Shown: in pieces, positions 339 through 43,187 of the stretch
How positions within the stretch are numbered: position 1 is the first letter of the stretch
Layout: every line of letters begins with the position of its first letter
From: Catajapyx aquilonaris
Lineage: Eukaryota
Direction of reading: 5' to 3'
Assembly: GCA_000934665.2 (NCBI GenBank)
Contig: JYFJ02001593.1
Location: forward strand, 1-64,000
DNA: 64,000 nt
The notes under the pieces: model-generated
Databases searched by the model: none
What the model was told of the DNA's origin: nothing
What the model saw: the letters and a program-made list of their open reading frames with translations, nothing else
Translations under genes and position numbers: made by a program

Positions 339-1080
339 AATAAATTGGCTAACACTTGGTATATGTTGAAATTTGAAACATTTAGATGCTTTTCTGGACA
401 TGTGAATTTCGATAACTTCATACTTTGTCCCAGCCATGATGTCTCATTTTGCAAAATTTATATTTTGTAAAAATGGTGTTGACTCATCATTGCCATCATA
501 ACTAAAATGACCCCTATACATTTCACCGTCACGTTTGATAATGTCCTTCACAATGATGGACTCTGCAGGATCCCAGAGAGTATATGCTCACCTCTCAATA
601 TGATGTATTTATATGATTGTCAGCTGTCTCCAGAAACCAGTTTGAAGAGTCCAAACAATCTCGCCAGATTGTTTCTTCCAAAAGGTTGGTTCTCTTGAAT
701 CTTATTGTTGGGGATAAACAATCCCTTACAATCCCTACTCCACTCTTGAACTGATCTTGGGAAATTATTGCCGGATTATCGCCGGACAATGCTCCTTCTT
801 TGGACGGGTAAACGAGCTCCACACACTTCGACTTTGTTTCACTCTCCCTGCAATGTGTAGACTGGAACTGAATCGCGAAAAGAAACATGTAGTGTTTGAG
901 TACGACGAGGAACCAATTTTTTATTTTATTTTTTGCGGTCGAGTGATCTGGTACATGATCAAAACCAGGTTCAGATGTCACTACCGGAATCGGCTTGCCA
1001 TCAGTCACCTATAGGCACGAGAGGAGGACATGAGTCACTGATCTTCGGGATGATTGTTTGCAAGCATCGCCGTACCTGAT

Positions 1081-1293
1081 TTAACCGTAGTAGTATCCTC
1101 CATAGCCCAGGCCGTATCCCAGGCCATAGCCGTAGCCCAGACCGCCGTAGTAGCCGCCATAGTACAGCTGGGGAGCAGCCAGGGTCATGGTGGCCAGGAT
1201 GGCCAGAACAAGCAGGATCTAACGAGGGCAAGAACATAGTTAAAACCAATGGGTTAAACAGACTAATGCGGATTAACTCACCAAGTACATCAT
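1081..1293 (-). CDS. Small secreted Gly/Tyr-rich peptide 1 (49 aa; cuticle-protein-like or NLP-31/caenacin-like)
   Basis: Exons 1293-1282 (MMYL, gtgagt donor) and 1218-1081 give MMYLILLVLAILATMTLAAPQLYYGGYYGGLGYGYGLGYGLGYGGYYYG*. Hydrophobic signal peptide, TATAAATA at 1394-1401, 3'UTR intron 1009-1075, AATAAA near 920-931. Confidence 0.9.
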
Positions 1294-1393
1294 CTTGATT
1301 ATAGGGTCTCCTTTCCTTCCTTCTTAGTCGCAAGTAGTGTGCTGAATCTGTGCTGTGTTGCGATCTGTGCCTGGTCCGGTGGCAGTGGGCCAC

Positions 1394-1436
1394 TATTTAT
1401 ACGGCCAGGGGCTTGCTTGCTGGTTGTCGCCCTTGG
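1394..1436 (-). promoter_or_regulatory. Core promoter of peptide gene 1: TATA box plus CCAAGGGCG (NR5A/FTZ-F1-like) site
   Basis: TATAAATA on the minus strand at 1394-1401. gtcgcccttgg at 1426-1436 is the exact reverse complement of ccaagggcgac at 3418-3428, upstream of gene 2. Confidence 0.55.
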
Positions 1437-3043
1437 TTCGATGGCCGGGCCCTCACTTCATTCCGCTGTCCTTCGAGAGCATTACACCGCGTATGTCTGC
1501 TGGGCGTTTTGTTTGGATTTTTGTTTCCGCTTTGGCCCCCTTCCCTCCCACGTGCTTTTGGGGACCACACCACTTTCGGTGGCCAGTTCAGCGACTCATT
1601 CAGCGAGGACAACAAGTATACGCACTGTACTGTACTGCCCATCACTGCTTTTTTTTTAAATGGGATATTGCATCAGCTACTGCGAGTTCTAGTTTATGAT
1701 ACGCCGAACACAAGCTGAATTTCAATTAGTTTACAGGACGAATTGCTGTAATTCAATTTCGGCTATATCACGAAGACAATATTTAGCATGTAATTGCAAT
1801 TCGTCCCCACGTGAATTATCAAGAACTTCCTGCTGTCTATGCAGTTATCAAACTTTGGACATAAAAACATGTAGCCCACTATATCATAAAAATAATGCGA
1901 ACATCCAGAATATTGCAACAATGCAATCTCTGAATGGGAATATCGCTGTGTGCCAAGACTTGTGCTAATTCTATTGGCACAAATACTTATAATCTTTTAA
2001 TGAGTCAAACAAATTCGGGTTGACATAATTCATCTCTTCATTTTGGGCAGGTGGAGCATGACGTGTGTACCGTTAGGCGAATGCGGACAGACCCCCGGAA
2101 GGTTTCCGCCCACATTAAAGCCAATAGTCAGCTGCTGCAGCCTTAGTCATGTTCCGAATATTATATTACACGAGCATCATATCTCACACATCCGAACAGT
2201 TTTATTATCCTCCACCTGCAGGACCAGTTTAGGGATGGATTGGTGGGCAGGTTTTGCAAAGTCGCCGTATAATTGAGCGGTCGTAAATCGCGTCATTACA
2301 GCCCCCGGTTACAGTAACGATGCAACTTGTTACCACTCCCAAAGGCACGCTCCTCTTCATTTTTTTATTATTTATTTTTATATAAAAAAGGTGTGTCGTC
2401 ATCAGCAGGTGTTAAAACACCGAAACACTCCGTATACTTTTGAGGTCCATCTCAATATTGAATTATTATTGGAGAATATCACACTGCGCTTATAATTATT
2501 ATATAAGACTGGTTAACATAATAAAATTATGTACAGTATGGTTTGGGTCAAGTTAATTGTAGTTTGAAAAGGTGCCATGTATGTATGGAATAATGCCCGA
2601 TCATTAAATAAAAATTTTCGGTTAAATATCATGCCTGATTGCATGACTGAAAATGATGAGAAAATTTCCGATTATGACTTTGTCCAGTTTACTATCCAAA
2701 ATCATAGATTTTCTATGAATTTGCGTTGTTGGTCTTATGATTTTTGGCAAATCGTGTCACATCTTAATGTTCAAATACACGTTTGAAAGGACAAGGCGCA
2801 ATGTTTCGTACGGTTTCGTTTAACTGCGGATCAGGATTGGATCAAGATAAAACAGTACATGTCAGTACCACACTGAACAGTTTTATTTATATTTTTTTGC
2901 GGTCAGGATGAGTGGTACATAATCAGACCAGGTTCAGATGTCACCAATCGGGAAATGGCTTCTCATCTGGAGACCTGAAAGAACAGAAAACTTGGTTAAG
3001 ACACCCAGGCTCTCATTGCATCAGCAAGAATGCTGTACCTGAT

Positions 3044-3278
3044 TTAACCGTAGTATCCGTAGCCGTAGCCAAGGCCGCTGTAGCCCAGACCTCCGTAGCC
3101 GTAGCCCAGGCCACCGTAGCCGTACCCGCCGTACAGACCACGTCCGTACAGGAACTGGGGAGCGGCCATGGCAGCAGCCAGGAGGGCCAGGACCAGCATG
3201 ATCTGAGAAGCAAACATAATTTAGCATAGTACACCCGAGTCTGCAAAAATGGGCCAACAAACTTACCAGATACATCAT
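3044..3278 (-). CDS. Small secreted Gly/Tyr-rich peptide 2 (56 aa), tandem paralogue of peptide 1
   Basis: Exons 3278-3267 and 3202-3044 give MMYLIMLVLALLAAAMAAPQFLYGRGLYGGYGYGGLGYGYGGLGYSGLGYGYGYYG*. TATA at 3362-3369, 3'UTR intron 2975-3038, AATAAA near 2882-2887. Confidence 0.9.
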
Positions 3279-6200
3279 CTTGGACTGTGATTGACTTGCG
3301 ACGGTTGACAGAAGGTTCGGTTTGTTGTGCTAACTGTGCCTTTTCGATGTCCAACACCTCGTATTTATATGCATCTCTCAAAAAGTCCTTTCTATGTCCT
3401 TTCCCTTGGCTTGTCATCCAAGGGCGACGGCCTCTTTGAACGCAACGTTGACGTAGGTCTTTGCCCCGCCGATTCTAATTCTGGACCCCCCCAAAAATAT
3501 TAAACTAAGCATTGTTACTAATAAGGTTAAGGTGCATAACTATTGAGTGGACGTCCTTGTGGCCGTTGACTTACATTTTGCTTTCATGGTTGAATCAGAA
3601 GTCTTTGTTATCTGCATGGATCTTACACCCCGCCTAAATCCTGACACTCACGGATACGAAAAAAATAAAATGAAGGTGCGATGCATGTCCTCAAGATAGG
3701 ATAGCAAGGTGCAAGTACGCCTTCTGAGAAAGGAGATGACGCAGGTGAAAACCGTGTACCGTAACATGTAATTACCGATTAGACTTTGAGATAATTGTAA
3801 GTATATAGAACAAGGAATCTTGTGTAATTTCTGTGGGTTAATTTTTTTTCCAAACAAAAATGTTCGGTGCGACATTGTTGATTGGACGTCACTTTTTAAT
3901 TGTGTGCGTCACGATTTTAGGGTGGGTTTCTTTATTAGACGAGGATACAACGGTAAAGTTATGATCCATCAAGTGTAAGGTCGGAAAAATACTTGGCAAA
4001 AAAAAAACGCAAAATCGTGAGACGGCGTGTGTCTTACATCAAATCGAGTCCGGCGACATTGAAAGCCAGTTTTTTTTTGTATGTTTCTTAAACATTTGCA
4101 GTCCCTCAAATCCGTTACTAGTGTGTACAAACTGGATCCAATCCAGAGAAAGAGAGAGCTATCTCACTTCCTATAGCCAGATACTATTATTGCCATTTTC
4201 GGGTTCGGATATATACCGCTACATGGCACCCAACTATCGCCGGAATAAAAATAGGTACAATGCCATCAGAAAGGTACCGTACAGAGATAATAACTGACAG
4301 CCTTGATATCGACGCCTTATATGTTATATACTACCGGTAGGCTGTTTGCGAAATAACATAAATCATAGCAACCCTTTAATGCAGAGGGTGAAACTGGCTG
4401 ATTTATGCTGTTATTTTCACGTGCCGTACACATCCTTTAGATTTAAAACATCAGAAACGTGCAGAAGCTGTCATCCGCAAGTTATTTTCGATATGACAGT
4501 ACAAAAACATATGCTCAAATTCGCAAGCAATCAGTTTAAAGCGAAATAATTGCAACAATGTGGCCAAACATCGATCAACAACGATGTTTTTATAGTTGCA
4601 AATTACACGTTTGGTATAGAAATACTAGAAACACCTTATTTTTGTTTTTTTGATAAAAAACAACAGAAGGCACTTATTATTTAAAGGGAAAAAAAGGAAA
4701 GATTGCAAATTGCACCAAGTCGAAGGCCAAATGGGGGTATGAAAATAAGCTGCCAAGAAATATTTTGGCAAGTTACCCAAAAGGGGCGCGGCACTCTGGA
4801 GGAGGAAGAAGAAGGCTGTGTCTATACCAAAGCATACCATTTCTGGAAGCTTTTTTTTAATTAACTTAATTATCACTCACGTCAAGTCGAATTTTATATG
4901 CCCGCCATAATCAGCAGGAGGTCTGACTTCATCGGGAAGTTTTGGCAAAAATTAGAAGAGAAGAAAAAAAACAGTTTTCGAGCGGTCACAAAGGTTGCCT
5001 CGTGGATGTAACCTGTGTTATTGCGACCTTGCCCATGACCCCATTGGCATCATCAAAACGGCGTCATTCCCACAGCATCCTCAAGGACACCATTTTTATC
5101 CGCACTAAAAAAAATCGGGCTTGAAAAAAAAATTTAAAGGAAGGAAAAATCGTACACGCCCTGTTCCGCGTGTCTTCCTCATTTTTTTTTTTGTGTGCGA
5201 CCAATGGTCACGATCACCAGACTCGTGACATATACGCACCTTCAGGCAATGATGTGTAACATATTGCCAATAAACAGATTATGTAAGGTGTAATTCCGGG
5301 TTTCACTGTCACCACCAAAATTATATAGGAGAAAAAAAAACGGTCTGAAAAAATTGGCATTAAATTACTGCCATATTGAATATGAGCAAACATTTTTCTA
5401 GTTTGATTATTTTTTGAATTGATGACAATCGAGGCATTTCACTTTGCTGACCTTTTCCAAGGTGTGTTTATTGTGTACAAAATGATCATTTCTTATGGAG
5501 GGGGGAAAATGTGTGTTGCCCTTTAGCTCTTCGTAGACCTTGGACCGGTTGTAACAGACGAAAAACTGTTTTTCCCTTCCTGTGATCTCCGCCTGCGGTT
5601 TCTTTACCTTTCACATCAGATGACCTTCTCTGGTAAAAAAAAATGGCATGCGCGCTTTTATTTTTGCACGGGGCATATCAGAGGACCCTGATCCAAAAGT
5701 CGCCATTAGCAAGGCCAATCCACTTCCACTTTTCTTCTCTTTTTATCAGGGGGATTAACACACGCCTCGGAATATCTGCTGCATTATGCAAAACTTTAGG
5801 AGGAAGGGTTTTTAAAATATTCTTCTTCCCAGTCTGTTGTATATTTACTGCCCGTAAATATATGCTAGGATCGGCACGATCGAGTTAGATCATCCCACAG
5901 AAAATATTGGCTGAATTGTAAACAAGGCCACGAGGGTACAATGATCACAACACGGAGACCATTAAAAGAGAGGAAAATAGCTCGTTTAGTCATGACAAAC
6001 AAACCGATACTATACGAGTTAGAATTAATATGAGAGTTACAATCGCGTACGCAAAGTGTGTGTACGCCTTTTATTTAAAATGGACTGGACAGGAATTCTC
6101 AAGGATTTGGCCGCACCTGTTGCCGGATTTTTCAATGGAATTCTTAGGTTCAACTCAAGCGGGGCACAAATCACAATTATGGGACAGTTAAATGAATCAT

Positions 6201-6959
6201 CCTCAGCAAATTAGCCGCGTCCGTGGAGTGTCCAGGAAGTCAACAAAAAAATTTCGGCTGCTGAAATGTCAATGTCAGCCGGTTGTCTCTTTTTTTGAGG
6301 GCGAAAAAGTGACCTCGACAAGCGTTCACATTAGACGACAGCCCGTCTTCTCAATTTGTCGGGCAATTTGTCACAAAGCTCTAAAATGGAGTGAAATTTG
6401 GGTATTTAAGAAAAAAAACATCGCACGTCCACAGTCACTATACACAAGAATTTGTACTGATTCAACCCCTTTTTTTGCGCCAATGTCCAAGTGAGAAAAT
6501 CCAGCCAAAGCACAGAAAAACCGGTCAGAGAATAATTCCGCCCTTTATAAATTTTGTGGCGAGAAGGATAAGTGTCCAGGAACAGGATGTTACGAGGTGA
6601 CGAGTGATATACTTTGCCGCAATCCGGGTGACTTTAACGGCTGGATGGAAAGTGATCGTCAGAATTCTTGGGAATTAAAAAGATCCGCATTTTTTTTGGC
6701 CTTTAAAAACAATGTTGGCATTGACTAATTATTTACCCCCCCCCCCCCCCTCCACTTTTGATTAAACCACCCTTTGTTCCCTATCATCTCTTCGCGATCT
6801 CCGAAGGCCAAGAATCAAACCCATTTGCCTCCAGGCTGCTGAGAGCAACGATAAATATAAACCCACTGAAACCTGCANCCCCTTCCCGCAAAAAAAGGAG
6901 GCGTAAAAAATTGATTGGACGAAATACTGGTTAGTGGTTTTTAAATTTAGTCAATTTAA

Positions 6960-7140
6960 ATATATATAAAGCAGAACGTTTGTATGTATGTCACGCCTAC
7001 CTAGCCCACTTCCGTACTGCTGAAACTTGGCACAAGTACTTACGTGCTACTGATTCAGGGAAAAGTCCCCAAAACTGCACTTTTTAAAGTATAAATGCCC
7101 AAAATTTAGGATTTTCTCCTTAGAAATATTGTTCAGTCGA
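6960..7140 (+). mobile_element. Possible Helitron-like remnant (5' part)
   Basis: tatatataaagcagaacgtttgtatgtatgtc...ctgaaacttggcaca resembles the start of arthropod non-autonomous Helitrons. No 3' CTAG/hairpin end identified. Confidence 0.3.
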
Positions 7141-8469
7141 CTATAACTTTGCACTGCCCAACAGTCCAACAAAAGAAAGTAACGAATTGTTGACCCCAGT
7201 TCAACTGTGAATGTGACTTATAATTATTATTGCAAAATGGGCATTTAATTTAATTCCTTCGATGTCCTCTTGAATTGTGGACACATTGTTAGTGTATATC
7301 ATAGGGAAAAAAAATCCTACAGTTGCAGCTGCAAGGTGCAGCTCAACATGCACCAACTTCTCATAGAAACCTGATACTATATTTGCAATCAAATATAAGC
7401 CATCTACCATCATAAGTAAGTCAGATTTTTTTCTTTCTTTCTTTCTTGATCTTTCTTTCTCGTAACACGGCAGGGCGTGCCTTTCGAGCCACGCCAAACT
7501 ATTCAAGGCCTCTTCTGTTGTTGGTGGCGTTCCAATTTGGCGAAATCTGAGCCTCTCTTTGATGGACCTACCCATGGGAGAGGATAGAGACAGAGAGAAG
7601 AAGAAAAAAATGTCGACCCACCCATCAAAATCCATTCAGATGTCGCCCACCTTGCAATGTCCACTGTTATCAATCACGGATTAAGTCCCCGCTGAATAAT
7701 TTGCGTCGGCGAAAACCACCCGCAGAGTAATTGGCAATCATTTGGCGAGACTATAGGGCTGTGCTAGAAGGCAGCTAGGGGTTGGCATTGGCCTTGGAGA
7801 AGGAAGCCGGAAGATATTTCCTGGAGGAACAGGAATGAACCGGGATTGTTTTTTTTTTGCTTGCAAATATATCTGCTCCAGTTTTATTTCCTTGACATTC
7901 TCAGTCGTATATGACATCACTTGTCATCCTATAGAAGGAGTAACCTGGCACGTTTTCATATACATAGGCCACCTGCTGAATCTGGTGGCCATGACTTTTG
8001 CAACAGCAGTAAAACCCGCAGGATTTACAATTAGCGACAAGAAAAAAGCGACATACACGCCTCTTTGGCAGAAATATTGGCGCTAATTTCGCAATTTGCA
8101 CATTAATCGCAGTAAGTAGGCAGTAAATTAAAGGCTGAAAAGGCCATCAGACACTTACAGCTGACAATGTAATAGTCACTGTCGAGAGTCTACGGCAGGC
8201 TTACTTTTGGAGAAATTCAATTGAAATGTACAGAACAATTTTGCGACTTTGTGGTCATTTCCGTAAACCAAGTATTAGCAGAAAGACCGCATAAATGCGC
8301 TGTTTGGCCTTTATAAAGATTGCCGATAAATCATGCGACATTCCAAAAATATGATTATTAATAATTGTGACGACTACAATGACATTGCTAGATGTTAGCT
8401 AAGCGTTCATACATTACAAACTTAGTAGCTACAATTTTTATAGATAGAATGACAGAGCACCCATATTAT

Positions 8470-8700
8470 AGTGTGTGAAGATGATGAGGATGAGGAAAAG
8501 GAGCCACACCCAATTGGGTAACTCTGATGGAATCGCCGGAAGGCACCCAATAATGAAAGAGGAATGCAGGAGGAAAGAAAAGCTCCGAGAAGGAGGATGG
8601 ATGGATATAATCGAGTAAAGGAAAACTGGTTCATAAAACGGCTGGATCGAGATAAGGATCGAGGCCCTTTCAAGCGGCTACCTCCTCAGTCGTGATTGGA
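8470..8700 (+). mobile_element. Possible degenerate RTE-type LINE 3' fragment
   Basis: Purine-rich stretch with a frameshifted ...R-W-M-D-I-I segment resembling the RGRPRRRWxDxI C-terminal motif of RTE-clade ORFs; no intact ORF. A similar weak trace lies on the minus strand at about 9925-10060. Confidence 0.25.
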
Positions 8701-10949
8701 CTGTCTTGCTTCATATACCCACGCCAATTCGCAACAAAAAAAAGTGTGCAAAAATGCGTATATGAAACAGGGAAGTGGCAGCCTTGGCCTTGCTGACCAA
8801 CCAGCAATGTCACGATGTGTCGGCCTGTTGCTCACCTGCTGACTATACCCTTTCTTTTTCTTCTTCCATTTTTTTTTTTTTGTAGTGCAGCCTATCGCTC
8901 CTCCAATTTTTTATATACGATCGCTTCGGTTGCATCGTGAGCAATTAAATCATTGCTCGATATAGGTAATGGACTGGGTTGGGATGCCGCCAATACGGAA
9001 GGAATAATCGCAAGGTTACACAATGCCGAGGTGAGAGAGAGAGAAAAAAAAAGCCGGATTTGAATATTCTATTTTGTGTACAGCTGGAATTAATGCAAGG
9101 TTTTTTTAAAAATGGGGGGCTAATGGCCATTGTTGCAATAATTGTGTTCGCTCGTATTGGACCGGCCACAAGCCTGCAAAAATGCGAGGGACATTGTCCT
9201 CGGCCAATTTTCAGCGTGTAATGAGCAGATCATGCAGCGTATTGTTATGCCTAGTGTCCTTGGCCAGAAAAGCAGGTTGGTGGACCCTATACTGACTGAC
9301 TGTCGGCAGTCTCTTTCAGCTTCCTTCTTCCTTAGCTCCCCCCCTCCAACAAAGCAGAGATCGATTTCAGCGATGGATATAACAATATTAAGGGCGTTAG
9401 CACTTTGCAAGACCTCGCCTCTCTGTACACTTCCTACCCGATTCATTACGCGGCAACCCACACACGCCATGTCGCTGCATTGTCACCGTGATCCTTGGGA
9501 TCATCTCCAACAGGGTCGGGACCTCGGTTCAGAAATCATCTGGCAATAAAAATTCTCAAGAAATAGGCTAATACGGCCCCATGTTCACAGTACAATTGTG
9601 ATGCCTATCACGGGACCTGGCTTTGATGGAAGTTGGCACAGGATTAGAATACTATTTTTTCTCTTCTTCAAAATATCTGGCGATGTTACGTGTCGCTTCG
9701 GGGCAATGGCTGTTGCGTAAACTCTCGGTATACGCAAGTTTTACGAGAGGTGCACCTGCACTAAAAGAAATTATCCGGGGTGTTATCTAACATGTGTAAT
9801 TGTGCAACTCGACAAAAAAAAATGGCGAAGCATCATTCGCAATGAATGTCCACCAGGTTTATTGTTCAGCGAAGTGTTTTTAAAAACACGTTGGAAGCAC
9901 TTGTCGTTATTGCTGTACAATACAAAGGTCTTTCCTCTTCGTTTCTGTCCCCATCTTTGTGTCTTCTATATTGGCTCCTTCCTAATTCAAAATTTCTGCG
10001 GACTTCATTGGTTGGACTGTTGCGTACTTGGCCAGTGCACCACCCTGTAGGGTCATGGCCTGACTATATTGCAGAATATGACCTCGAGTGGACAAACTAT
10101 AGGGTTATCTACCGCTGAATAATTTGTATAGGGGCCTTGGAAATTAGACCGGTTGCCGCCTGGGACCAATTACGTGTACATACCGCAATAAATTGGCAAC
10201 TTACGACTTTTAGCACGCGGGTTTCAGTGGCAGCAGCATTCAGACATTTCAGACTTCCTGCTTCCAAAATTTCCAATACTATTTTGCATCATCATTTACC
10301 AATTGAAATTGTCTCTCCTTTTTTTTGTGTGTGTGGAGATGTGTTCATAATGCTTGATCCGATGATAGAGCATGGCGAATAAAAAGATACGGAGCTGACT
10401 CATCCTTTTTATTGCAATTTTTTTTGCATAAGTACAAATTGCAGCTCTCATTAATAGATTGGACGTTAAACACGTCACATGTTCTGCTCTATGGGTTGAC
10501 GCCAGTTCGTTTTTTTTTAGTTAATGAAAAATTCATAGAGCGGTACAAATCTATGACGCCTGTCCCTCCAAGCATTGCAATCTCCCAAATATATAGGTTA
10601 GTCAGTCACTGGAAATAGTTGGCAACTTCTTCTTTTTTTTACGGTTTTCCATCCGAGTTGAGAGGGTGATCACGTTCGTGTTATGGAGCAATAATTGGCC
10701 GTCTCTTCTTCTTTTCTTTTTTTCCCCCCACCCCCTGCAAAACGGAACAGAAGAGGATGGTTGGGTGGAGACGGGTTATGTCACGAGTAGGCAGCAGTCC
10801 CTGTCCTTGGCCCTGGTCGCCTCGGGGCCGATCCCATCCCAGCTATATAAGTCATCCCCCCGGCCAGGCAAAGGCATCCGTCTCCACAGCAGATATCTGT
10901 TCAGTCTCTCTCTCGTACGTTGCTAGCAACAAACCCAAAACCGCCCAAG

Positions 10950-11159
10950 ATGATGAAGCTGGTAAGTAACCATAATATTTTCTAAAGTTCTTTTTTGGCT
11001 CACCCTGTACGATTTTTATTGTAGCTTATGCTGGTTATGGCCCTCCTGGCTCTCCTGTCCATGGCTGCTGCCAACCCCCAGTACTACGGCTATGCCTACC
11101 CAGCCTACTCCTACGGCTATGCCGCTGTCCACCCCTACGGCTATGCCTACTACGGTTAG
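10950..11159 (+). CDS. Small secreted Tyr/Ala/Gly-rich peptide 3 (48 aa)
   Basis: Exons 10950-10961 (MMKL, gtaagt donor) and 11025-11159 give MMKLLMLVMALLALLSMAAANPQYYGYAYPAYSYGYAAVHPYGYAYYG*. TATATAA at 10844-10850, 3'UTR intron 11170-11242. Confidence 0.9.
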
Positions 11160-13841
11160 ATCTGAAGAGGTCAGTATCTCCCTTCGCATATACAATTGTT
11201 ATCATTGAATAATTGCTCTAATTTGCTGTGCTCCTCATGCAGAAACGATGCTGTCGGAATGAAGACGAATCTCCCTTATTCCTTCAACAAACCATTAGGC
11301 CTAAAGGACTTTGCGGATTTCCAAACCACAAAATGGCATTACTATGATCTGGTCTCCGACTCTACCAATTTTCTTCCACTTCTGTAATATACTGTAAAAG
11401 AAAAACAGCAAAAATACCCACTGGGCAATTAAATTGTTCTTTTTAAATCCAGTGCTTTTCAATCCTGGAGGAGGGGAATCTGTTTGCATTTTCAGGAGAC
11501 GAGGAAAAGGTTCAGCCCCAAGTTTTATTTGTATAGGTATACTGAAGAAGTCTGCTCGAAATCTGAGGTTAAATCGCTCGGCGCAATGAAGAAGCACACT
11601 GCAGGAAACCTCTGGCACTTGACAGCAGCTGTGGTGTCCTCGAATGGCGGCGTCTTCCACAAGTTATATTAATTTTGCAAATACAAAACTGGCACCGTGG
11701 TGATCTTGAAATAAAAACACATTTAAAATTTATTTAACGACCGGTGGCCCTCACATTTACATTTAGCCATCTAGGACTGTTGTTGCAACAATGAAGGCTC
11801 CCATTTCAAAAGGCACCATTTATGTCAGAGAATTATTTATGTCAGAGAATTCACTAAAGCCCATTTGTTCGACTGCTCGTATAATTAAACACAACTTGTA
11901 CAGCTGTAATCTATTTTCCAATGCATATTTGGTCCTAAGATTAATCAGTAAATACCTTGTCGATAATAATCATTTCGCGACTTGATTTTAGGCACAAAAG
12001 CAACGAAAAATCAGCACTAATGAGCATCACACAGTGAGGGCCGGTTGTAAGCAAATGAAGAATTAGCTGTGTGTCATTATTATCGATCAAATAACGCTGC
12101 GTGGCCTAATTAGAAAAGTAAAGTACGGGTTTGGAAAATGAGGCCTTCAAACTTCCGACTCCACTAATTGCCTTATTAACGCAATTAAATAACCGGATAA
12201 TACCAGAGTTCGTGATTTTTTTTGCGGAAGTGACATTTTAATTAGCATGTATTTTTACCTTCAACGGGATTAACAAAATTCAACGGACTCAAACACATCA
12301 GAAATTCGTTCCCCTGACGAAATCCAGAAAAACTATAGGCGCATGATTATCACCCATTACTATATTAATGTGGAGTTCCGTTTGTCAAAAGAAATTCATT
12401 CATAATAATCAAGTCGTCAGTGTGACAAAAACATTGTTACGCGGCTGTAGTGTTTATGACGCGAGCTAATAAGGCCATGCTTTGCAAATAATCACTTGTA
12501 GAACTACTTGTTAATCTTAATGACATTTATCACCCGTCCAGAAATATAACACGGGTTTTTTTTCCTTACTTCTTGTTCAACACTTCTGTGGCCACAAGAT
12601 TGATTGGGACCACAAATAAACCGATATCCCAATAAAAAAACAAACCCAATTATAAAAATAACTGATAGTGAAGTCTATAAGTAAAAGGTCTGTATTACTG
12701 TCATTACAAGAGTTTAATACTCAATATACGGCACAATTACTTTGACGCTTACGAAATAATCGACGAAAATGTGCATGAGCTCATTCCTCCTGCAATTAAC
12801 CTGCTTTGAAAAAATCCTCACACTATTCAATAGCGTTCATTTTTTTATCATTGTATAGTCTAAAGAATAAATTGTTGGTAATTCCTTTTGCAGTAGACCT
12901 CATCAAACGTGCATTACGAAAGCATGACTTTCATCCACGAGAATACCTATGCTTCAGGCGGCTGCAGTATATTAATTAAATAATTAAGTAAAGCACTAAA
13001 ACTCCGCGAGTATAATGTCTGGATGACTATAATCCTATCCTGGATACGACACGCAGCCCCCACAACCGAACCGACACTGTGGCTGCCTTCTAGCCAGGAT
13101 ATGAAACTGGGACCAGGAAAATGAAAATGTCCGCTCGGCTGCGAAGGAGGGCTTAAACTGTGGACCAAAATGGCCAGCTGCTGCATCTAAACAATCCCAA
13201 GCATCGCAAAAAAAATAGCCGCAAAAATTCGCCAACAAATAAAAATATCAGCTGACAGTGATGCCATGAATAGGAGCCTATCAGTCTACAAGGACAACCT
13301 GATGCAGTTGCCAATAATGATAGCAATCGACTATATTATAGACTGGATACTCCTCCGCGTTACAATTATCACCGGAGTAAATGAGGGGGGGCAAAAAATT
13401 ATTACCGCCCAACCCGGAGGTTACATTGTAATGGTAATATCATCTGGGCTTCCCTCAGTTTGCGTAACAGGGTGTGGTCAATCACTGTACACCTGTGTAT
13501 GACCTTGTTGGATTACTCTATACACACGCATTATTATAATTCGCACCCATATTAGAGCATGACTTCCTGCAAGCGGAATGTTCAAGCAACATATTGGGTT
13601 AACCAATTGCTTAATAAATTATGGTTAATCTCGTACAAAAGGATGAGGTGTAAATATAATTATGGTAGCTACGTTGGTGATGTGACAATATTAAAGGGCG
13701 TATCTCCCACCCAGAAAGGTGTGGCCTTGCTGAAACCAGATTATAAAAAGGTCGTCCGGTACCCACCGGCGCATCACTTTCCAAGCTTCCCAGCTGACAA
13801 CTTTGCTCGGTTTCGCACCCTTTCAAATCAATCAATCAATC

Positions 13842-14048
13842 ATGCTGAAGCTGGTAAGTTCACTCTCATCATCTATCCAAATACAGCATGTGGAACCGAC
13901 ACTAATTGATTGGAATCTCCAGCTGATCCTCGTCATGGCCCTTCTGGCCCTGGCCAGCGCCCAGTACTATGGCTACTACGGCAGCACCTACGGCTATGGT
14001 GTGCCTTACACCTATGCCTACAGCCCTGCTGTTGCCTACTACCGTTAA
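13842..14048 (+). CDS. Small secreted Tyr-rich peptide 4 (45 aa)
   Basis: Exons 13842-13853 (MLKL) and 13923-14048 give MLKLLILVMALLALASAQYYGYYGSTYGYGVPYTYAYSPAVAYYR*. TATAAAA at 13742-13748, 3'UTR intron 14059-14120, AATAAA at 14206-14211. Confidence 0.9.
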   Translation: MLKLVSSLSSSIQIQHVEPTLIDWNLQLILVMALLALASAQYYGYYGSTYGYGVPYTYAYSPAVAYYR

Positions 14049-14965
14049 AACATCTTCGGTAAGTGCACAGACCTGCAATATGAAAGTGGTCAACTAATTA
14101 GCATCGATTAATTATTGCAGGACCATTGCTTCATCCATGACGACCCCCTGACGTAACATCAATTCGGACAACACCTTCACAAATTGTCTTCATACCTATG
14201 CTGTGAATAAAATCAAAGTTGTTCTTCAAACCTAGCCTATTATTATTCACAAACTAGCACTGAAAATGGGTTCAAAATATTGTTCGCTGCGAATGAAACA
14301 TTGGTATCGTAAAGGGTCTTTATTCCTCACTGGAAGCAACAGGAAACAACTGGGAAACAACCAATGGGCAGCGCACACTGAGGCAAGCGACGGGACAAGT
14401 GCACTTAGTGACGAGGGTTAAATGCACTGGTTCCAATTGGTTCAGTGTCGGTGAGCAAAAAGCAGCGGTTTAACACTTCTCCTTATTAACTCTTCCAGTA
14501 TTGTTATTATTACTATGTTTTCAACATTGCGCTTCGAGTGGCAGTGATCTTAAAAATGATTGTTGTGTAGCATCTTTCACGCTTTCAGCCAACAGCAAAA
14601 TGAAGCACAATACTCATGACGTCACCGCGCTATGCAAGGGAATGCGTTCTAGTCAGCACTTGAATGGCGATTATGATTTTAGTGCCGGTTTACATGTCAC
14701 CATTGTTCTAAGCTAACCCAGAAAATTTACATGCAGCTTACTTTTTTTCAGATCAAGTTCTTCAGATTTTACAAGGCATTCCTGCAAAAATTCATTTTCA
14801 AATATGTCAACTTTTCCCTTCACACAAGTCAATTATTTTTTTTGACAGCAACGCAACTTAATGAGGCAAAAATTTTAGATTTTAAAAAAATCTTAGAATA
14901 AATTCGGTCTTCAATGCAACACCTGATTATTGCAATTTAAAAAATGCCTGGATATGCACTACTAA

Positions 14966-15609
14966 CAAGGGAAGTGTCTGTAGGGCCATCGGCCAATCGG
15001 CCCGAAAATGACACTAGGGGTAAATCGCAGGCCAGAAATTCATTGGTGAAAGTAAAAAGTCGCATTAGCCAAGCGTTTTCGAGATATGGGCGACTATAGG
15101 TGCCTGGCAAACACGAATAAGTAATTATTTACTGAGCTTGTGACTATTAATTTTTCCGAATATGAAGCCATGGAGAGAGTAGGTAAGCATCGGCAGAAGA
15201 AAAAAAAGTAATACACTTCCCAGAAAGCTGTTTATTTATTCCTGTTGATTGCAAAAGGGAAGATATGCGGTGATAAACGGTGTTGGGGAAGAAGGAAAAA
15301 GAAACCGATGCTCCGAGACGAGAGAGGGAGGGGGGGAAAAAAGTCGCTTCCCGCGGACTTGAACGCGGAGACTTCGGATCATGACGCGGACGCGCTACCG
15401 ACTGAGCCACGAAGACTGTTTATAATTTCTTCTGCCGAATGCGCCCCATTGTCACCGAGCAGGTTTGCCGGGCACCTATAGTCGCCCATATCTCGAAAAC
15501 GCTTGGCTAATGCGACTTTTTACTTTCACCAATGAATTTCTGGCCTGCGATTTACCCCTAGTGTCATTTTCGGGCCGATTGGCCGATGGCCCTACAGACA
15601 CTTCCCTTG
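14966..15609. mobile_element. MITE / non-autonomous DNA transposon, 147-bp TIRs, TAA target-site duplication (PIF/Harbinger-like TSD)
   Basis: 14966-15112 and 15463-15609 are reverse complements with one mismatch seen (tgcctggc vs tgcccggc). TAA flanks both ends (14963-14965, 15610-15612). No transposase ORF in the 350-bp core. Confidence 0.9.
15343..15416 (-). pseudogene. tRNA-Met(CAT)-derived pseudo-tRNA / SINE-head-like Pol III cassette inside the MITE
   Basis: Minus strand reads GTCTTCGTGGCTCAGTCGGTAGCGCGTCCGCGTCATGATCCGAAGTCTCCGCGTTCAAGTCCGCGGGAAGCGAC then T6. A-box TGGCTCAGTCGG, CAT in the anticodon position, B-box GTTCAAGTCC within a CCGCG/CGCGG stem. Acceptor and anticodon stems are imperfect. 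Confidence 0.7.
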
Positions 15610-18600
15610 TAAGTACTTGAGGAGTTCAATAGGTGGCGGTCGGGACAAGTATACACAACGTCAAAAATATGATACATAAGTTAACCTCAGAAGATAACAC
15701 ATGATGAACCGAACAACATATCCGATGATACATGTAGAGAGTACAAACATAACACTGAAATATTTCAGATACCAGAGAGACAACTTATGGAATATAAATA
15801 GCGAATAATATTTAACTAGATGGAAGTTGATGAATTATGACAAGGAAAAAATACACCCAAGGACACATTACAAGATAAATGAAACATTAAAATCTGGTAA
15901 TTAAAATGTACAATGCTTATTTCCATAATTGGTATGCACTGATGAGTGAAATTATTATTAAATGCACCACAAATATTGAGATCATATAATGAGAAAGGTC
16001 AGTTATTAACTTCCACTTTGAACTGCCAGATATGCTTGAAACAAGTACTTACAAGCATGTAAGAATGGCACATTGGATTATTATTGGCAATATCCAATTT
16101 ACCAGATATATTCCCACAATAAAACATATTACCTGGCTACTCACACATGAACAGCATTGTCGCCTACACAGTCCGTAATCACGACATTTATTCATGAGTA
16201 AAAATGAGTGTAATAAATGAGTAATAAATTGGCTGAACATACACATTAATACTTTGGCGTGCGGGTATCTATTTCATTTGCATTGTTTTGATTTAACTTG
16301 ACAGTACTGACGCAACATGATTTTCTCCCATCAAATCGCTGCAAAAGCGTGGGATACAAAAGACACCTTGGGAAGGACAACTTGCTAAAGCACCTGAGCA
16401 ATATATACAGTATGTTCAAGACAGTTTCGCATAAGGGACTGTGACGTAACTAAGACGAAACGCTACTGGCTCCTGGTTACGCTAAATTACTGAGCTGAGA
16501 TTATTCCCTGCAACAATGCTTCAATTCAAAGCTGCTGTGAAATGTAGATAAGTAACATGCTCACTGCCAAAGTTGACATGAAATCTACCTATCTTCGATG
16601 GAATCGACAGTGTTACATGTAAGGTCAGTGTATAAACCTTTCGACACGCTCACAAACACGATGCTCTAATAGCACTTATGCTCATCATGTTCTGTGATAT
16701 TCTTTAATGACTGCTTACTTGTTAAGTACGGTAGTGCTCAGGTAAGGTGCAACTGCTGGGATCCCCTCTGCGAAACTGTGCCAGAACGTACACTGAGTGG
16801 CTGAACCTATGAAGCATCCCTAAGTGGCGAGCATGCAATGCAACACTGCGATATTGCAATAAAAGCAAACAGTCTCCAGGAAAGAACCAGCTCGGGGGCC
16901 ATCCAGGGATCGCTTCCTTTTTCTCAGGCTTGCATGCACAAATGCCATGCCAAAAACCCAATAATACTGCAGTAACAATCAATGCACACCTACTCATTGA
17001 CGCTAATTTGCTTTGGTCGTGTATAAATTCGTACATGTATAAAACCTGGCTTCAGTACAAAGACATATGATACAAATTCGGTTTTGAATTATTATTTTTT
17101 TCGTCTTCTTTTTTTAAATGCATTTGGGGCTGAGTTCGGTTAATTGTGTTAGACTATAAGTCAAATTATTTTTTTTGGCTTCTTATTTGCGCCATCATTC
17201 ACTCATCGCCTGGACAACCCGAAATATCCTTGAAACTCACCACAAATGCAACGCTCTTCCTGTACAATAACTACTTTTAAGACATCTAATCTATGCCACG
17301 GACATGCACAATTTAAAATTAGCACCTTTATTTGCTCAGACCAATTCGACGTAATGTGTGATTAAGCTGCATGTCATTTCCTACCACTGCCAGTAAACAC
17401 TTGCAAAAGTTTACCATTACTCCTCAATGAAATGACTACTGCTTCATCAAACACTTACGATTATTACCAGTCTACACAATCACTGGCTGCTTCTTTTTTT
17501 TTTTTTTCCAAAGGATATTGTAGTGTGGAAATGTGGATATTACTTGTCTTTAAAAATGACTTTCATGAGCTAGGAATATTTGCATAACCATTGCACATAC
17601 AAATTTTTAAACTGTGAATTCATGTTTCAATTCACATTTTCCATATTGTTGCATACGGTACGTCGTAATTCATTAACGAACATAATTCTGAGGACGATAT
17701 AAACTATTCCCACACTTCAAAAACTCACTGTAAATATCTGAGCGTTGCTTTGAGGCAAACTCCAAGCCTCTCACGAAAGGCAGGCATAATAATTTTTCAA
17801 ATTGCTAAAAAGGACACAAACTATTATGCTAAAACAGCTGGCAAAAAGTGTGGCTTGGCAAAAATCCATGTTACGGTACGTTGCACTCAAATGAGAGGAT
17901 AAAATATTGTGTTTCCCTACAACAATGAACAGGAGCTAGAAAATAAATAGCTTGTTCAATATGCCCAACAGTGTCAATAAATTCCTATTGTTTAGAATTA
18001 AAGTTGTCATTATTACTTTTCTTCAAGATAAAACAATGGCAGTATATTTGCCTATTCATATTGGTCAACTTTGTTGTTTTTTCAACAGTGGAACCCTTAT
18101 TTTCCATTTTATGAATCTGTGCATCAATGGCGATATCCGCAGGATAGAACATTTCCTCCACATGCATTAGCGGATCTCTTTCACGACGTCTTGGGAGTGT
18201 ACGATGCAATTAACATCAGTTGGTGCCAAATGCTCACGTAACTGATATAACATTTGATGAGATACCAAGCGGATAACTCAATTAATGCACAGGAGCATAA
18301 ACTTTGAGCAAAAATTTGTTGTTTGTGAGAGCGCTTTTTTTTTTTTGCTCCTCACTATTTTGTGGTTCCTACAACAATCCCTAGTTTTCAACAATGGATT
18401 AGAATCCTTTTAAACCTGTTACAACTGCGGCATCTTGTCGCTAACTTTTCTTAAACGGGTGTCAAACAGCTCAACTGGTCTGCATTGTGGCATTGCTCCG
18501 TACCTTCAAATTGATTATACTTTTTCGTGGTTTGATATTAGGTAGCCACAATTAATTACAGGGACAGACCTGTTGCTTTCCCACCCAAGCTCCGGAGAGG

Positions 18601-26172: not shown

Positions 26173-26248
26173 AATTAGTGAACTTGTGACTTTCTTTGAT
26201 AGGAATGATGCGAGACCGTGGCCACAGCATCGGGTAAGTGCATCGAGG

Positions 26249-32455: not shown

Positions 32456-33378
32456 AAGAAGAATCGTGGGAATGGTGTTGGGGACAAACTCGAGCCCAAA
32501 TCAGCCGAAATGGACGACGGACAGAAGTCAAAGGATGACCACCACACGCTCAAGGGTACGGCCAACCGGGTGGACCACTTGTCTTAACGATCCAGTGGAT
32601 AGATTGGCAGAAGAAAAATTAATTAGCAAACTTATTGTCCACTCAGCTGTTGCTATGCAGGCCACACCCTGAAGGCCTAAGTGGCCTTATCAGGGTGCGG
32701 CTGCAGGCTGTCATGTTTAACCAAGTACATGTAGATAATATGTAGATTATATTAATCAATATGAAAGCACTGCCTAAGATATTAGCGAAAAATAATTGCA
32801 ATAGCAACAATGGCCACACCCATGTTCCAACATATGCTTCATCCCACTGTATGCATCAAATTGTTTCTGATTTGTCTCGTTGATCTCACTTTCACAGCTG
32901 GCATGTTCCTGACGAGTGTGGCAGGCATGTCGATGCTGGGTGGGTTTGGTTATGCTGTGGCGGCTGCCAAAAAGAGCGACCCGACCCACTTCGATCAAGG
33001 TCTGTCGCCGTTTGATGCCAAGCAGGCTCGTTTGGCTGAATCTGGATCCAGTCTGGCCGCACGGGCTCTCGGATGGGGCACCCTCCTCGCTGTCACTGGA
33101 GTTGCATCGATCTCATACATCGCTTGGAAACTCATTGGAGCACAAGATGTAAATCACTTTGCAAAATTATTGGAACTTTTTTCCCTGTCCAAACGCTGAA
33201 TGCACACACTACTTATTTTATTTAGATGACTGATTTCCGCAACAAAGTCGGAGCAATGTTGCCAAGACTGACCAAAGAAGGCCCTGGAAGGACCCAATTT
33301 GACAACCTGAGTGATCTTGTCCAGTACATCATCGATGAGGATGAAAAGAACAAGAGGAACAAGAGAACTGTTGATTAA
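32447..33378 (+). CDS. TMEM242: Transmembrane protein 242 (DUF1358 family)
   Basis: Exons 32447-32555, 32898-33148 and 33226-33378. Motifs AGMFLTSVAG..MLGGFG..VAAAKKSDP..F..G, ESGSSLAARALGWGTL, DFRNKVGAMLPRL, GRTQFDNLSDL. Confidence 0.9.
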
Positions 33379-42356: not shown

Positions 42357-43187
42357 TTAGTTGGAAGTCCCGCAGAGACAGACCCTGGACTGCAGGGACT
42401 GGCTTGAGGACTGTTGTGGCTGCCTGCGAGTCACGTACTTCTGGTGGAAGTTGACAGTGTTCCTGTAGTCCGGTTCGTACACGTCCGGGATGAGCATTCC
42501 CAGGGCTGCGTTGGGCAGCATCCGGACGCTCTCGTGTCCCGTCAGCCTCCGCTCGTACTCCAGAAGCTGCCTGAAGAACCCATGGTTGGGTCTGATGATG
42601 GGTCTTCTGGCCTTCACGTGGTAGTAAGCCCTCCTGAGACTCATCCCTTGGTGCTTGATCAGGTAGGCCAGGCACAGGGATGCTGAGCGACTCACTCCGG
42701 CCACGCAATGGACCAGCGTCTTGCCTCCTGAACGACGTACTTCCTCGATCTTATCCGCAACTGGTTCCATGTACGGAGACAGGAGAGCGTACGGGGAATC
42801 CTCGACTTCAACCTTCACATACTCCACCTGAAAATTGATCATGATTGTTATGGCCCGGTAATTTGGGACATGGGTCAGGGCTATGCTAAATATATAAGTG
42901 AGTGAGTAAAAAAGCAGTGGTCGAATTTAGTGGGCCAACAGCACGCACGTAACTGGACTCGATCCAGCAAGGTTCAGAAACCCTGTGTGTGCACGACTGA
43001 CGACGCAATTAATATACATACTGACCTTGTCAATGGGAAGATTGGGCAGCTCGATTGTTGCGTTGACCACGCATGTGACACCCAGCTCTCTCAGTTTTGA
43101 TGCCTTGACTGCCCTGGCCGAACACAGGTACAGGCAATCGGTGATCTCTGCCACCTGAAGCATTATGTTGTTCTCCTCTGGCTTCAT
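42357..43187 (-). CDS. Atypical dual-specificity protein phosphatase (DUSP14/18/21-like)
   Basis: Exons 43187-43026 and 42827-42357. AEITDCLYL, VTCVVNAT, catalytic VHCVAGVSRSAS, AYLIK, IRPNHGFFRQL. An acceptor at 43228-43229 implies upstream, possibly coding, exons. Confidence 0.9.

What the first reader, a model, noticed from the sequence alone, without database searches (positions are those of the whole stretch)
900..14220. Cluster of four hidden 45-56 aa secreted Tyr/Gly-rich peptide genes with predicted pyroGlu N-termini and amidated C-termini
Seen: four paralogues in two divergent pairs (-,-,+,+). Each has a 4-codon first exon, a signal peptide and a mature region of about 28-37 aa starting at Q (APQ, APQ, NPQ, SAQ). 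Three end in YYG*, one in YYR*. Established: N-terminal Gln cyclises to pyroglutamate, X-Pro dipeptides are removed by dipeptidyl peptidases, and a C-terminal Gly is the PAM amidation donor. Nematode NLP-29/31 and caenacin antimicrobial peptides have this Q-start GYGGY design, as do low-complexity arthropod cuticle proteins. Inference: a co-regulated family of processed epidermal peptides acting as antimicrobials or as Tyr cross-linking cuticle components. They fall below normal ORF cut-offs, so they are probably unannotated.
Basis: partly seen in the sequence, partly recalled or inferred. Interest (0 to 1): 0.8.

Follow-up and report, generated by a model that had tools for sequence, protein, structure and literature searches.

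The report
Cluster of tyrosine-rich secreted peptide genes
Four tiny, real genes encode secreted, almost charge-free tyrosine-rich peptides that most resemble the insect NPLP4 and low-complexity cuticle-associated peptide genes, so the cluster is genuine but probably of a known kind.

Summary
Four paralogues (-,-,+,+) share one micro-gene plan: TATA box, a 12-nt coding first exon, a 63-69 nt phase-0 intron inside the signal peptide, one exon for the rest (45-56 aa in all), and a second intron 5-10 nt after the stop. They are under purifying selection: dN/dS is 0.13 for A-B and 0.28 for C-D. Contigs of one public run show the 3'UTR intron of gene C removed and a poly(A) tail on gene D.

Unnamed relatives from other organisms keep three features: a Gln start after exactly one X-Pro dipeptide or directly after A-x-A, no Asp, Glu or Cys, and mostly 11-12 aromatic residues.

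An N-terminal pyroGlu is well supported. Amidation is possible for three genes but is not conserved, since relatives end in R, KK or GR.

The antimicrobial reading is weak: the peptides are uncharged and the promoters have no kappaB-like sites. The gene plan matches insect cuticle-protein genes. The design matches silkworm NPLP4: clustered, a YYX end, and induction in the epidermis at the moult. Homology to named NPLP4 could not be tested. My verdict is a new member of a known kind, of moderate-low interest.

The parts
905..1401 (-). Gene A, whole unit from the TATA box (1401..1395) to just past the AATAAA signal (930..925)
1282..1293 (-). Gene A exon 1 coding part, 4 codons (MMYL), followed by a GTGAGT donor
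1081..1218 (-). Gene A exon 2 coding part with stop: rest of the signal peptide, AP, then a Gln-start 29-aa Gly/Tyr peptide ending YYG
   Evidence: the loose end at 1219 reads exon-1 letters directly joined to exon 2
1009..1075 (-). Gene A 3'UTR intron, 67 nt, donor 5 nt after the stop (predicted)
   Evidence: the position is conserved in B, C and D and in relatives
2862..3369 (-). Gene B, whole unit from the TATA box (3369..3363) to just past the AATAAA signal (2887..2882)
3267..3278 (-). Gene B exon 1 coding part, 4 codons (MMYL)
3044..3202 (-). Gene B exon 2 coding part with stop: signal peptide, AP, then a Gln-start 37-aa Gly/Tyr peptide ending YYG
2975..3038 (-). Gene B 3'UTR intron, 64 nt (predicted)
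10844..11730 (+). Gene C, whole unit: TATA box 10844-10850; poly(A) signals ATTAAA at 11428 and AATAAA at 11710
   Evidence: contigs of X1 cover 11070-11895
10950..10961 (+). Gene C exon 1 coding part, 4 codons (MMKL)
11025..11159 (+). Gene C exon 2 coding part with stop: signal peptide, NP, then a Gln-start 26-aa Tyr-rich peptide ending YYG
11170..11242 (+). Gene C 3'UTR intron, 73 nt, GT..AG
   Evidence: joint 11167 to 11241 (cut +2), skips 73, one contig of depth 25000
13742..14230 (+). Gene D, whole unit: TATA box 13742-13748, AATAAA at 14206, poly(A) addition near 14230
   Evidence: a loose end of 22 A behind 14230
13842..13853 (+). Gene D exon 1 coding part, 4 codons (MLKL)
13923..14048 (+). 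Gene D exon 2 coding part with stop: signal peptide ending ASA, then a Gln-start 28-aa Tyr-rich peptide ending YYR
14059..14120 (+). Gene D 3'UTR intron, 62 nt (predicted)

Best explanation
These are four real paralogous micro-genes of a small-peptide family. Each yields a secreted, cysteine-free and almost charge-free peptide of about 25-37 residues, of which about 30-42% are tyrosine.

Shown here: the gene plan, selection on the reading frame, splicing of the 3'UTR intron of gene C and polyadenylation of gene D, and conservation of the peptide design in other organisms.

Inferred processing: signal peptidase cuts after a small-x-small site. Where an X-Pro dipeptide remains (A, B, C), a dipeptidyl peptidase removes it. 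The exposed Gln then cyclises to pyroGlu. The C-terminal Gly (A, B, C) may be converted to a Tyr-amide, and the C-terminal Arg (D) may be trimmed.

Inferred function: like insect NPLP4 and other tandem low-complexity secreted proteins made by cuticle-forming epithelia, the peptides are exported in bulk into an extracellular matrix, most likely the cuticle. There their many tyrosines would stack on and bond to chitin and proteins, and would serve as sites for oxidative cross-linking. They are not receptor ligands or cationic membrane-active antimicrobials.
For: Gene reality:
- All four genes have a 12-nt exon-1 CDS, a phase-0 intron of 63-69 nt, a TATA box at -91 to -108, and a second intron 5-10 nt after the stop. 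A, B and D have AATAAA 151-158 nt after the stop; C has ATTAAA at +269 and AATAAA at +551.
- dN/dS is 0.13 (A-B) and 0.28 (C-D), while intron 1 is only 41/63 and 39/63 identical.
- GC3 is 0.76-0.78.
- Run X1: 98 contigs were laid, 63 of them at 99% likeness or more. One contig (depth 25000) lacks exactly 11170-11242 with GT..AG ends. A 22-A loose end lies behind 14230. Exon-1 letters are joined directly to exon 2 at 1219.

Secretion: the 10-residue hydrophobic maxima have mean Kyte-Doolittle scores of 3.06-3.58 within a 17-22 residue pre-Gln part.

Family design: in 18 peptides (4 from the window, 12 database proteins, 2 loci) the Gln start follows X-Pro (14) or A-x-A (4). None of the 18 has D, E or C. 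Y+F is 11-12 in 15 of 18. All 3 metagenome relatives have a GTGAGT donor 7 nt after the stop.

Cuticle-type gene plan: in Anopheles CPR genes, 86% of intron-bearing genes are interrupted in the signal peptide, the first-exon CDS has median and mode 12 nt, and 93% have a TATA box and INR (PMC2259329, passages). [quoted passage not shown]

NPLP4 likeness: the silkworm has six NPLP4 genes in one narrow region, all ending in YYX, with ESTs from epidermis (PMC3032748, passages). Six NPLP genes rise with 68 cuticle-protein genes in moulting epidermis (PMC2848646, passages). Drosophila Nplp4 is 64 aa (PMC3334604, table row).
Against: - No tissue, stage or infection data exist for these genes. The kind of run X1 is not on record.
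- No chitin-binding or other Pfam family is hit.
- The peptides are far smaller than typical cuticle proteins.
- NPLP4 itself has no established function (PMC3969275, PMC3032748).
- Homology to named NPLP4 was not shown. Three database searches returned no named relative, and I could not obtain an NPLP4 sequence to align.
- The arthropod origin of the window is only tentative. The DDX10 exon is 58-63% identical to insects, a brine shrimp, a tick, a sea spider and even a chytrid.
- A test for Y-x-Y periodicity, which would be expected of a chitin-binding aromatic face, was not significant.
- The 12-nt first exon could not be found in the DNA held for two relatives.
Confidence: 0.5

Rival explanations
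1. Epidermal antimicrobial peptides of the nematode NLP-29/caenacin kind. They would be secreted on wounding or infection and act on microbes.
For: The composition and tandem clustering resemble the glycine- and tyrosine-rich nlp and cnc genes, which lie in small clusters and are induced by fungal infection (PMC2453101, abstract and passages; PMC3409374, passage). The contigs over gene C have very high word depth. Blocked termini are common in arthropod antimicrobial peptides (recalled).
Against: The mature peptides have no acidic residues. Their only basic residues are one internal Arg (B), one His (C) and one terminal Arg (D), so they are not cationic. None of the 4 promoters has a kappaB-like site and GATA sites are not enriched; this is a weak test. 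No nematode NLP/CNC protein was returned by the HMMER scan or the word search. The only nematode lead was an Atlas cluster at 0.83, below the 0.9 line.
Confidence: 0.12
2. Components of another tyrosine-cross-linked secreted matrix, not body cuticle. Candidates are eggshell (chorion or vitelline membrane), peritrophic matrix, or an adhesive, cement or silk-like secretion.
For: Gene B has a weak sub-threshold match to Chorion_1 (E 0.028, 14.8 bits against a cut-off of 22.3). The nearest Atlas clusters are labelled 'vitelline membrane protein Vm26Ab-like' and 'cuticle protein 16.5-like' (0.86 and 0.79, leads only). GYR/YLP-type tyrosine motifs also occur in eggshell and peritrophic proteins (PMC2932725, abstract).
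Against: All scores are below the thresholds. No expression data exist. Silkworm NPLP4 ESTs come from epidermis, ovary and prothoracic gland alike (PMC3032748), so the tissue is open.
Confidence: 0.13
3. True signalling peptides (hormone or neuropeptide-like), as the name NPLP4 suggests. The pGlu and amide ends would protect a ligand.
For: pGlu and amide ends are typical of neuropeptides. Drosophila NPLP4 was found by peptidomics of the nervous system, and its transcript responds to dFOXO (PMC3969275, PMC3032748, passages).
Against: There are no dibasic cleavage sites and no conserved core other than composition. The C-terminal residue varies (G, R, KK, GR). The paralogues diverge strongly in the mature part. 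Veenstra judges that NPLP2-4 more likely do not give GPCR-activating neuropeptides (PMC4237046, passage).
Confidence: 0.08
4. Soluble tyrosine stores. The peptides would be broken down before tanning to supply tyrosine, which is poorly soluble as a free amino acid.
For: Tyr is 30-42% of the mature peptide. Blocked ends would protect it in haemolymph. This is inference only.
Against: Nothing here speaks to turnover. Known insect tyrosine stores are conjugates and dipeptides (recalled), not 3-kDa peptides.
Confidence: 0.07

Closest known systems
Insect NPLP4 (neuropeptide-like precursor 4) genes: Drosophila Nplp4, Sarcophaga NPLP4, silkworm NPLP4A-F
   Same: Very small precursors (Drosophila 64 aa; PMC3334604). 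Several paralogues lie in one narrow region and end in YYX, and there are ESTs from epidermis (PMC3032748). Six NPLP genes are induced at the moult (PMC2848646). The window genes are 45-56 aa, clustered, and end in YYG (three) or YYR (one).
   Different: Sequence homology was not shown here. No named NPLP4 came back from three searches, and none could be fetched for alignment. X = R is not among the silkworm end residues. The window's organism has no close named relative, so it is probably not from the orders where NPLP4 is described.
Arthropod cuticular and low-complexity secreted protein genes (CPR gene plan; tandem arrays of Gly/Pro-rich secreted proteins; GYR/YLP-motif proteins)
   Same: A 12-nt coding first exon that splits the signal peptide, and a TATA box (PMC2259329). 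Tandem arrays, no Cys in the mature protein, and conserved tyrosines (PMC2932725).
   Different: No R&R consensus, GYR or YLP Pfam match. The peptides are only 26-37 residues long. The second intron just after the stop is not a described cuticle-gene feature in the passages I read.
Caenorhabditis NLP-29 cluster and caenacins (CNC)
   Same: Gly/Tyr-rich small secreted peptides from clustered paralogues, first named neuropeptide-like and expressed in epidermis (PMC2453101, PMC3409374).
   Different: No detectable relationship. The window peptides are uncharged. Induction by infection is unknown here. The gene plan and the TATA promoters are of the arthropod cuticle-gene type.

Membership tests
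Insect NPLP4 | Very small precursor with a signal peptide (Drosophila 64 aa) | tested here: met
   The precursors are 45-56 aa, with a hydrophobic core of mean KD 3.06-3.58 in a 17-22 aa pre-Gln part. SignalP was not available. The size comparison is from PMC3334604.
Insect NPLP4 | C-terminal YYX (X = L, V, I, G), as stated for all silkworm, Sarcophaga and Drosophila members aligned in PMC3032748 | tested here: met
   A, B and C end in YYG. D ends in YYR, and R is not among the listed residues.
Insect NPLP4 | Paralogues clustered in a narrow region | tested here: met
   Four genes lie within 13.3 kb and no fifth is in the window. Further expressed paralogues lie outside the window (loose ends).
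Insect NPLP4 | Detectable sequence homology to a named NPLP4 | tested here: inconclusive
   No named relative came back from the word search, the HMMER profile scan of 1.84 billion representatives (2 hits) or the profile word search (23 hits at E <= 1). No NPLP4 sequence was obtainable for direct comparison. Low complexity weakens all of these searches.
Insect NPLP4 | Expression in epidermis, rising before the moult | not testable with these tools
   Only one run of unrecorded kind holds the stretch.
CPR cuticular proteins | R&R consensus (Pfam PF00379) | tested here: not met
   hmmscan of the 4 exon-2 products at E <= 10 gave no PF00379 hit.
GYR / YLP motif proteins | Match to PF02756 or PF02757 | tested here: not met
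   Neither appeared at E <= 10. Cornman's wider motifs (PMC2932725) were not available to test.
PF22861 GEO12453p1-like (Atlas lead) | Match to the Pfam model | tested here: not met
   The Atlas scores of 0.86 and 0.77 are below the 0.9 line, and there is no hmmscan hit at E <= 10.
Nematode NLP-29 / CNC antimicrobial peptides | Sequence relationship to nematode nlp/cnc genes | tested here: not met
   None was returned. One nematode peptide cluster appeared at Atlas score 0.83, a lead only.
Nematode NLP-29 / CNC antimicrobial peptides | Induction by infection or wounding in epidermis | not testable with these tools
   No expression series is available. None of the 4 promoters has a kappaB-like site, but this is weak and uses an insect-type motif.
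Chorion_1 (PF01723) | Score at or above the gathering cut-off | tested here: not met
   Gene B scores 14.8 bits against a cut-off of 22.3 (E 0.028). The other three genes give no hit.

The most novel reading that the evidence does not exclude
The window shows one cluster of a widespread micro-gene family that is missing from named protein records. Its members would make termini-blocked, completely uncharged peptides with a near-fixed quota of 11-12 aromatic residues, whatever the length (25-37 aa) or the spacer chemistry (Gly-rich in A and B; Ala/Pro/Ser-rich in C and D). Such peptides would act not as conventional structural proteins but as small diffusible 'sticker' molecules. They might condense (coacervate) or plasticise the nascent cuticle and then be locked in by tyrosine oxidation. 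The conserved intron just after the stop codon would be part of their expression control.
Probability: 0.15. Interest if true: 0.6.

Novelty: new member of a known kind. Interest (0 to 1): 0.33.

Why it matters
Genes this small, with a 12-nt first coding exon, are easily missed by gene finders. All 12 family-like relatives I found in a 5.8-billion-cluster protein collection are unnamed, and most are mis-called ORFs that read through the intron acceptor. If the family is the counterpart of insect NPLP4, the window gives a clean four-gene example outside the well-studied insect orders. It comes with explicit processing predictions (pGlu start; amide or trimmed end) that mass spectrometry can test. 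It would also bear on an old ambiguity, namely whether 'neuropeptide-like' Tyr-rich peptides are signals, antimicrobials or matrix components. If it is only one more low-complexity cuticle peptide cluster, the finding is ordinary annotation.

Tried and rejected
- Whole genome: none is held, so the family size and the annotation status could not be checked.
- RNA runs: no RNA holder is listed. The only holder (X1, 0.24 of 344 sampled words) has no recorded kind. No joint for intron 1 of B, C or D was among the rows shown, and 95 of the piece rows were not shown. Parts without cover are not used as evidence.
- Pfam: there were no family hits. Only Chorion_1 (B) and SGP (D) appeared, both below cut-off.
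- Word search with gene C alone: no candidate.
- Profile scan: 2 hits. One of them (P0121, a 426-aa snail protein) I judged spurious, because only its signal and Gly-rich N-terminus match.
- Of the 23 hits I read 14. Twelve are family-like. P0130 is not family-like, and P0132 has a different design. The 9 unread hits include two annotated by a source as ribosomal protein L33.
- The search for related loci: the first alignment was too diverse. The second gave 601 pattern matches, none confirmed by tblastn.
- DNA pattern scan: only 3 of 88 loci are family members. The other 85 encode unrelated low-complexity ORFs.
- First exon in relatives: no 4-codon first exon was found in the 1.1 and 2.2 kb held upstream in L004 and L044.
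- Promoter motifs: kappaB 0 of 4. FTZ-F1, EcRE half-site, E74 and GATA sites are at or below background. No 7-9-mer is shared by all four promoters.
- Y-x-Y periodicity: not above shuffles in any of the 13 peptides tested (fractions 0.09-0.97). Adjacent Tyr pairs tend to be fewer than in shuffles.
- Exon 3 of A and B as coding sequence: rejected, because the frames are not conserved (read by eye).
- Rfam and tRNA scans of the window: nothing found.
- Earlier findings of this scan: nothing relevant.
- Papers not held: Cornman and Willis 2009, Li et al. 2009, and Baggerman et al. 2002. The four supplements of PMC3032748 that are held as text contain no NPLP term.
- Taxon: not resolved.

Full report
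**What is there.** The region holds four small genes, here called A to D. A and B lie on the minus strand and C and D on the plus strand. The two pairs point away from each other, with about 7.5 kb between the promoters of B and C.

| Gene | Strand | Exon 1 CDS | Intron 1 | Exon 2 CDS with stop | Protein |
|---|---|---|---|---|---|
| A | - | 1293..1282 | 63 nt | 1218..1081 | 49 aa |
| B | - | 3278..3267 | 64 nt | 3202..3044 | 56 aa |
| C | + | 10950..10961 | 63 nt | 11025..11159 | 48 aa |
| D | + | 13842..13853 | 69 nt | 13923..14048 | 45 aa |

- Exon 1 always carries four codons (MMYL, MMYL, MMKL, MLKL) before a GTRAGT donor.
- Exon 2 carries the rest of a hydrophobic signal sequence, then AP, AP, NP or SA, then a Gln, then a Tyr-rich tail ending YYG (A, B, C) or YYR (D).
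- The Gln-to-end parts are 29, 37, 26 and 28 residues. Each contains exactly 11 Tyr. A and B are 45-46% Gly. C and D have 14-15% Gly and use Ala, Pro, Ser, Thr and Val as spacers.
- A six-frame scan of all 64 kb found no fifth member.

- Every gene has a TATA box 91-108 nt before its ATG.
- Every gene has a second intron of 62-73 nt, starting only 5 nt (A, B) or 10 nt (C, D) after the stop codon.
- A, B and D have AATAAA 151-158 nt after the stop. C has ATTAAA at +269 and AATAAA at +551.

**Are they real genes?** Four lines of evidence say yes.
- Selection. Between A and B, 41 of 48 aligned residues are identical, with dS 0.77 and dN 0.10 (dN/dS 0.13). Between C and D, dN/dS is 0.28. The first introns are only 41/63 and 39/63 identical.
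- Codon use. It is strongly biased (GC3 0.76-0.78; TAC, GGC, CTG and GCC are preferred) in a window whose GC is 0.38-0.50.
- Transcripts. One public run (X1, kind not on record, held as contigs) holds 0.24 of the sampled words of 10880-14230.
  - Laid on 900-14300, 98 contigs fitted, 63 of them at 99% likeness or more.
  - One contig of depth 25000 skips 73 bases with GT..AG ends at 11167/11241 (cut +2). That is exactly the predicted 3'UTR intron 11170-11242 of gene C.
  - A contig ending at 14230 runs on into 22 A, 24 nt after the AATAAA of gene D.
  - At 1219 a contig continues with the exon-1 letters of gene A joined directly to exon 2. Its 5'UTR differs from the window, so it may come from a close paralogue.
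  - Another contig joins B-type exon 1 to A-type exon 2 with seven other letters between, and loose ends at 1168 and 1178 read other family-like tails. These show further expressed paralogues outside the window.
  - The tool warns that contig depth cannot rank genes, so I claim only presence, splicing and polyadenylation.
- Relatives in other organisms (next section).

**Relatives.**
- Pfam gives nothing above threshold.
- A word search with gene C found nothing.
- A HMMER profile of the four exon-2 products against 1.84 billion representatives gave two hits at E <= 0.001. One of them (P0122, 73 aa, from a 2.7-kb metagenome contig, 'hypothetical protein') is a clear relative.
- A profile word search gave 23 proteins at E <= 1. 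I read 14 of them and 12 are family members. All 12 come from metagenome or run assemblies and none carries an informative name.
- Several of these are bacterial-style ORF calls that read through the intron acceptor (...F-Q) into exon 2.
- A DNA pattern scan of metagenome contigs gave 88 loci, of which 3 are family members. In all 3, exon 2 is preceded by a ...TTTCAG acceptor, and the TAA stop is followed after 7 nt by a GTGAGT donor. The intron just behind the stop is therefore conserved between species.
- I could not find their first exons in the 1.1-2.2 kb held upstream.

**The conserved design.** I compared 18 peptides: 4 from the window, 12 proteins and 2 loci.
- Every one starts its mature part with Gln followed by Tyr, Phe or Leu.
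- In 14 the Gln is preceded by exactly one X-Pro dipeptide behind a small-x-small site. In 4 it follows A-x-A directly.
- None contains Asp, Glu or Cys.
- Basic residues sit almost only at the very end. The ends are R (12), GR (1), KK (2) and G (3).
- Y+F is 11-12 in 15 of 18, although the length ranges from 25 to 37.
- Ten of the 18 belong to one close subfamily, so these counts are not independent.
- A test for Y-x-Y periodicity was not significant.

**Processing (inference from established enzymology, recalled).**
- Signal peptidase does not cut before Pro, so a cut after the small-x-small site leaves X-Pro-Gln. Dipeptidyl peptidases that remove X-Pro are known from insect pro-peptides, and an exposed Gln cyclises.
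- The family-wide rule 'one X-Pro or none' is hard to explain unless Gln is the mature N-terminus.
- Amidation is chemically possible for A, B and C (a C-terminal Gly) and for the relative ending GR. It is not a family trait.
- Silkworm NPLP4 proteins end in YYX with X = L, V, I or G (PMC3032748). The conserved element is the YY, not the donor Gly.
- With pGlu and an amide, peptide A would carry no charge at all.

**What it works like.** The gene plan is that of insect cuticle-protein genes.
- In Anopheles CPR genes, 86% of intron-bearing genes are interrupted in the signal-peptide region. The first-exon CDS has median and mode 12 nt, and 93% have a TATA box and INR (PMC2259329, passages).
- Cornman describes tandem arrays of very low-complexity secreted proteins without Pfam domains, and calls the absence of Cys a hallmark of cuticular proteins (PMC2932725, sections 6 and 9).

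The closest named kind is NPLP4.
- The silkworm has six NPLP4 genes in one narrow region of chromosome 11. All end in YYX, and there are ESTs from epidermis, ovary and prothoracic gland (PMC3032748, passages).
- Six NPLP genes are up more than 4-fold in moulting epidermis, together with 68 cuticle-protein genes (PMC2848646, passages).
- Drosophila Nplp4 is 64 aa (PMC3334604, table). Its product, the 'YSY peptide', has no known function (PMC3969275, passages).
- Veenstra considers NPLP2-4 unlikely to be GPCR ligands (PMC4237046, passage).

I therefore read the cluster as NPLP4-like, matrix-directed Tyr-rich peptides, confidence about 0.5. The steps from 'secreted peptide' to 'cuticle component that is cross-linked' are inferred and not shown.

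**Rivals.**
- Antimicrobial (about 0.12). This rests on likeness of composition and clustering to the nematode nlp-29 and cnc genes (PMC2453101, PMC3409374). Against it: the peptides are uncharged, no relationship was detected, and none of the 4 promoters has a kappaB-like site, which is a weak test.
- Another tyrosine-cross-linked matrix such as eggshell (about 0.13). This is kept alive by sub-threshold Chorion_1 and 'vitelline membrane-like' leads.
- A true signalling role (about 0.08).
- A tyrosine store (about 0.07).

**Membership.** The size, the YYX end and the clustering of NPLP4 are met. Homology is untested, because no named NPLP4 was returned and none could be fetched. The models for R&R, GYR, YLP, PF22861 and Chorion_1 are not met. 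The organism is probably an arthropod, but the only marker searched (a DDX10 exon) is 58-63% identical to many arthropods and to a chytrid alike. No whole genome is held.

**Verdict.** This is a new member of a known kind, with interest about 0.33. The boldest reading still open is a widespread, unnamed family of fully uncharged 'sticker' peptides with a fixed aromatic quota (probability about 0.15).

Noticed in passing
window 14960-15112 and 15463-15615: A pair of 153-nt inverted repeats, 99% complementary, with 350 nt between them, just downstream of gene D. It looks like a foldback or MITE-like element. The middle contains a stretch that looks tRNA-like by eye, but ARAGORN finds no tRNA in the window.
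   Followed up: partly
window about 935-1008 (gene A) and 2895-2974 (gene B), minus strand: The third, non-coding exons of A and B share long identical blocks, including a run of about 17 bases, and are about as conserved as the coding exon. The reading frames are not conserved, so this looks like a 3'UTR control element. C and D do not share it.
   Followed up: partly
window 1168, 1178, 1209-1219 and 3265-3282 (loose ends of run X1): Contigs that fit only partly read other family-like tails and a different 5'UTR, so more expressed paralogues exist outside this window.
   Followed up: no
protein P0132 (99 aa, marine catalogue source): It starts with MMKL and a signal sequence. It then has an acidic X-Pro/X-Ala pro-part and a Gly/Tyr/Arg-rich stretch followed by G-K-R, a classical amidation and dibasic site. 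This is a related-looking but differently processed precursor design.
   Followed up: no
window 48565-49737 and 50965-52503, minus strand: Two neighbouring long open frames (390 and 512 aa) with similar leucine-rich sequence and no Pfam family at E <= 0.001. They are possibly a lineage-specific tandem pair.
   Followed up: no
window 26174-28495, 31093-31698, 32786-33199, 35406-36653, 42357-42926, 54875-56378: The rest of the window holds ordinary animal genes in pieces: an LRR protein, DDX10 helicase, DUF1358, an RCC1-repeat protein, a dual-specificity phosphatase and a PDZ protein. None is related to the peptide cluster.
   Followed up: partly
genes A-D, mature parts: All four window peptides have exactly 11 tyrosines, although their lengths are 26-37 residues and the spacer residues differ. 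Most relatives have 11-12 aromatic residues.
   Followed up: partly
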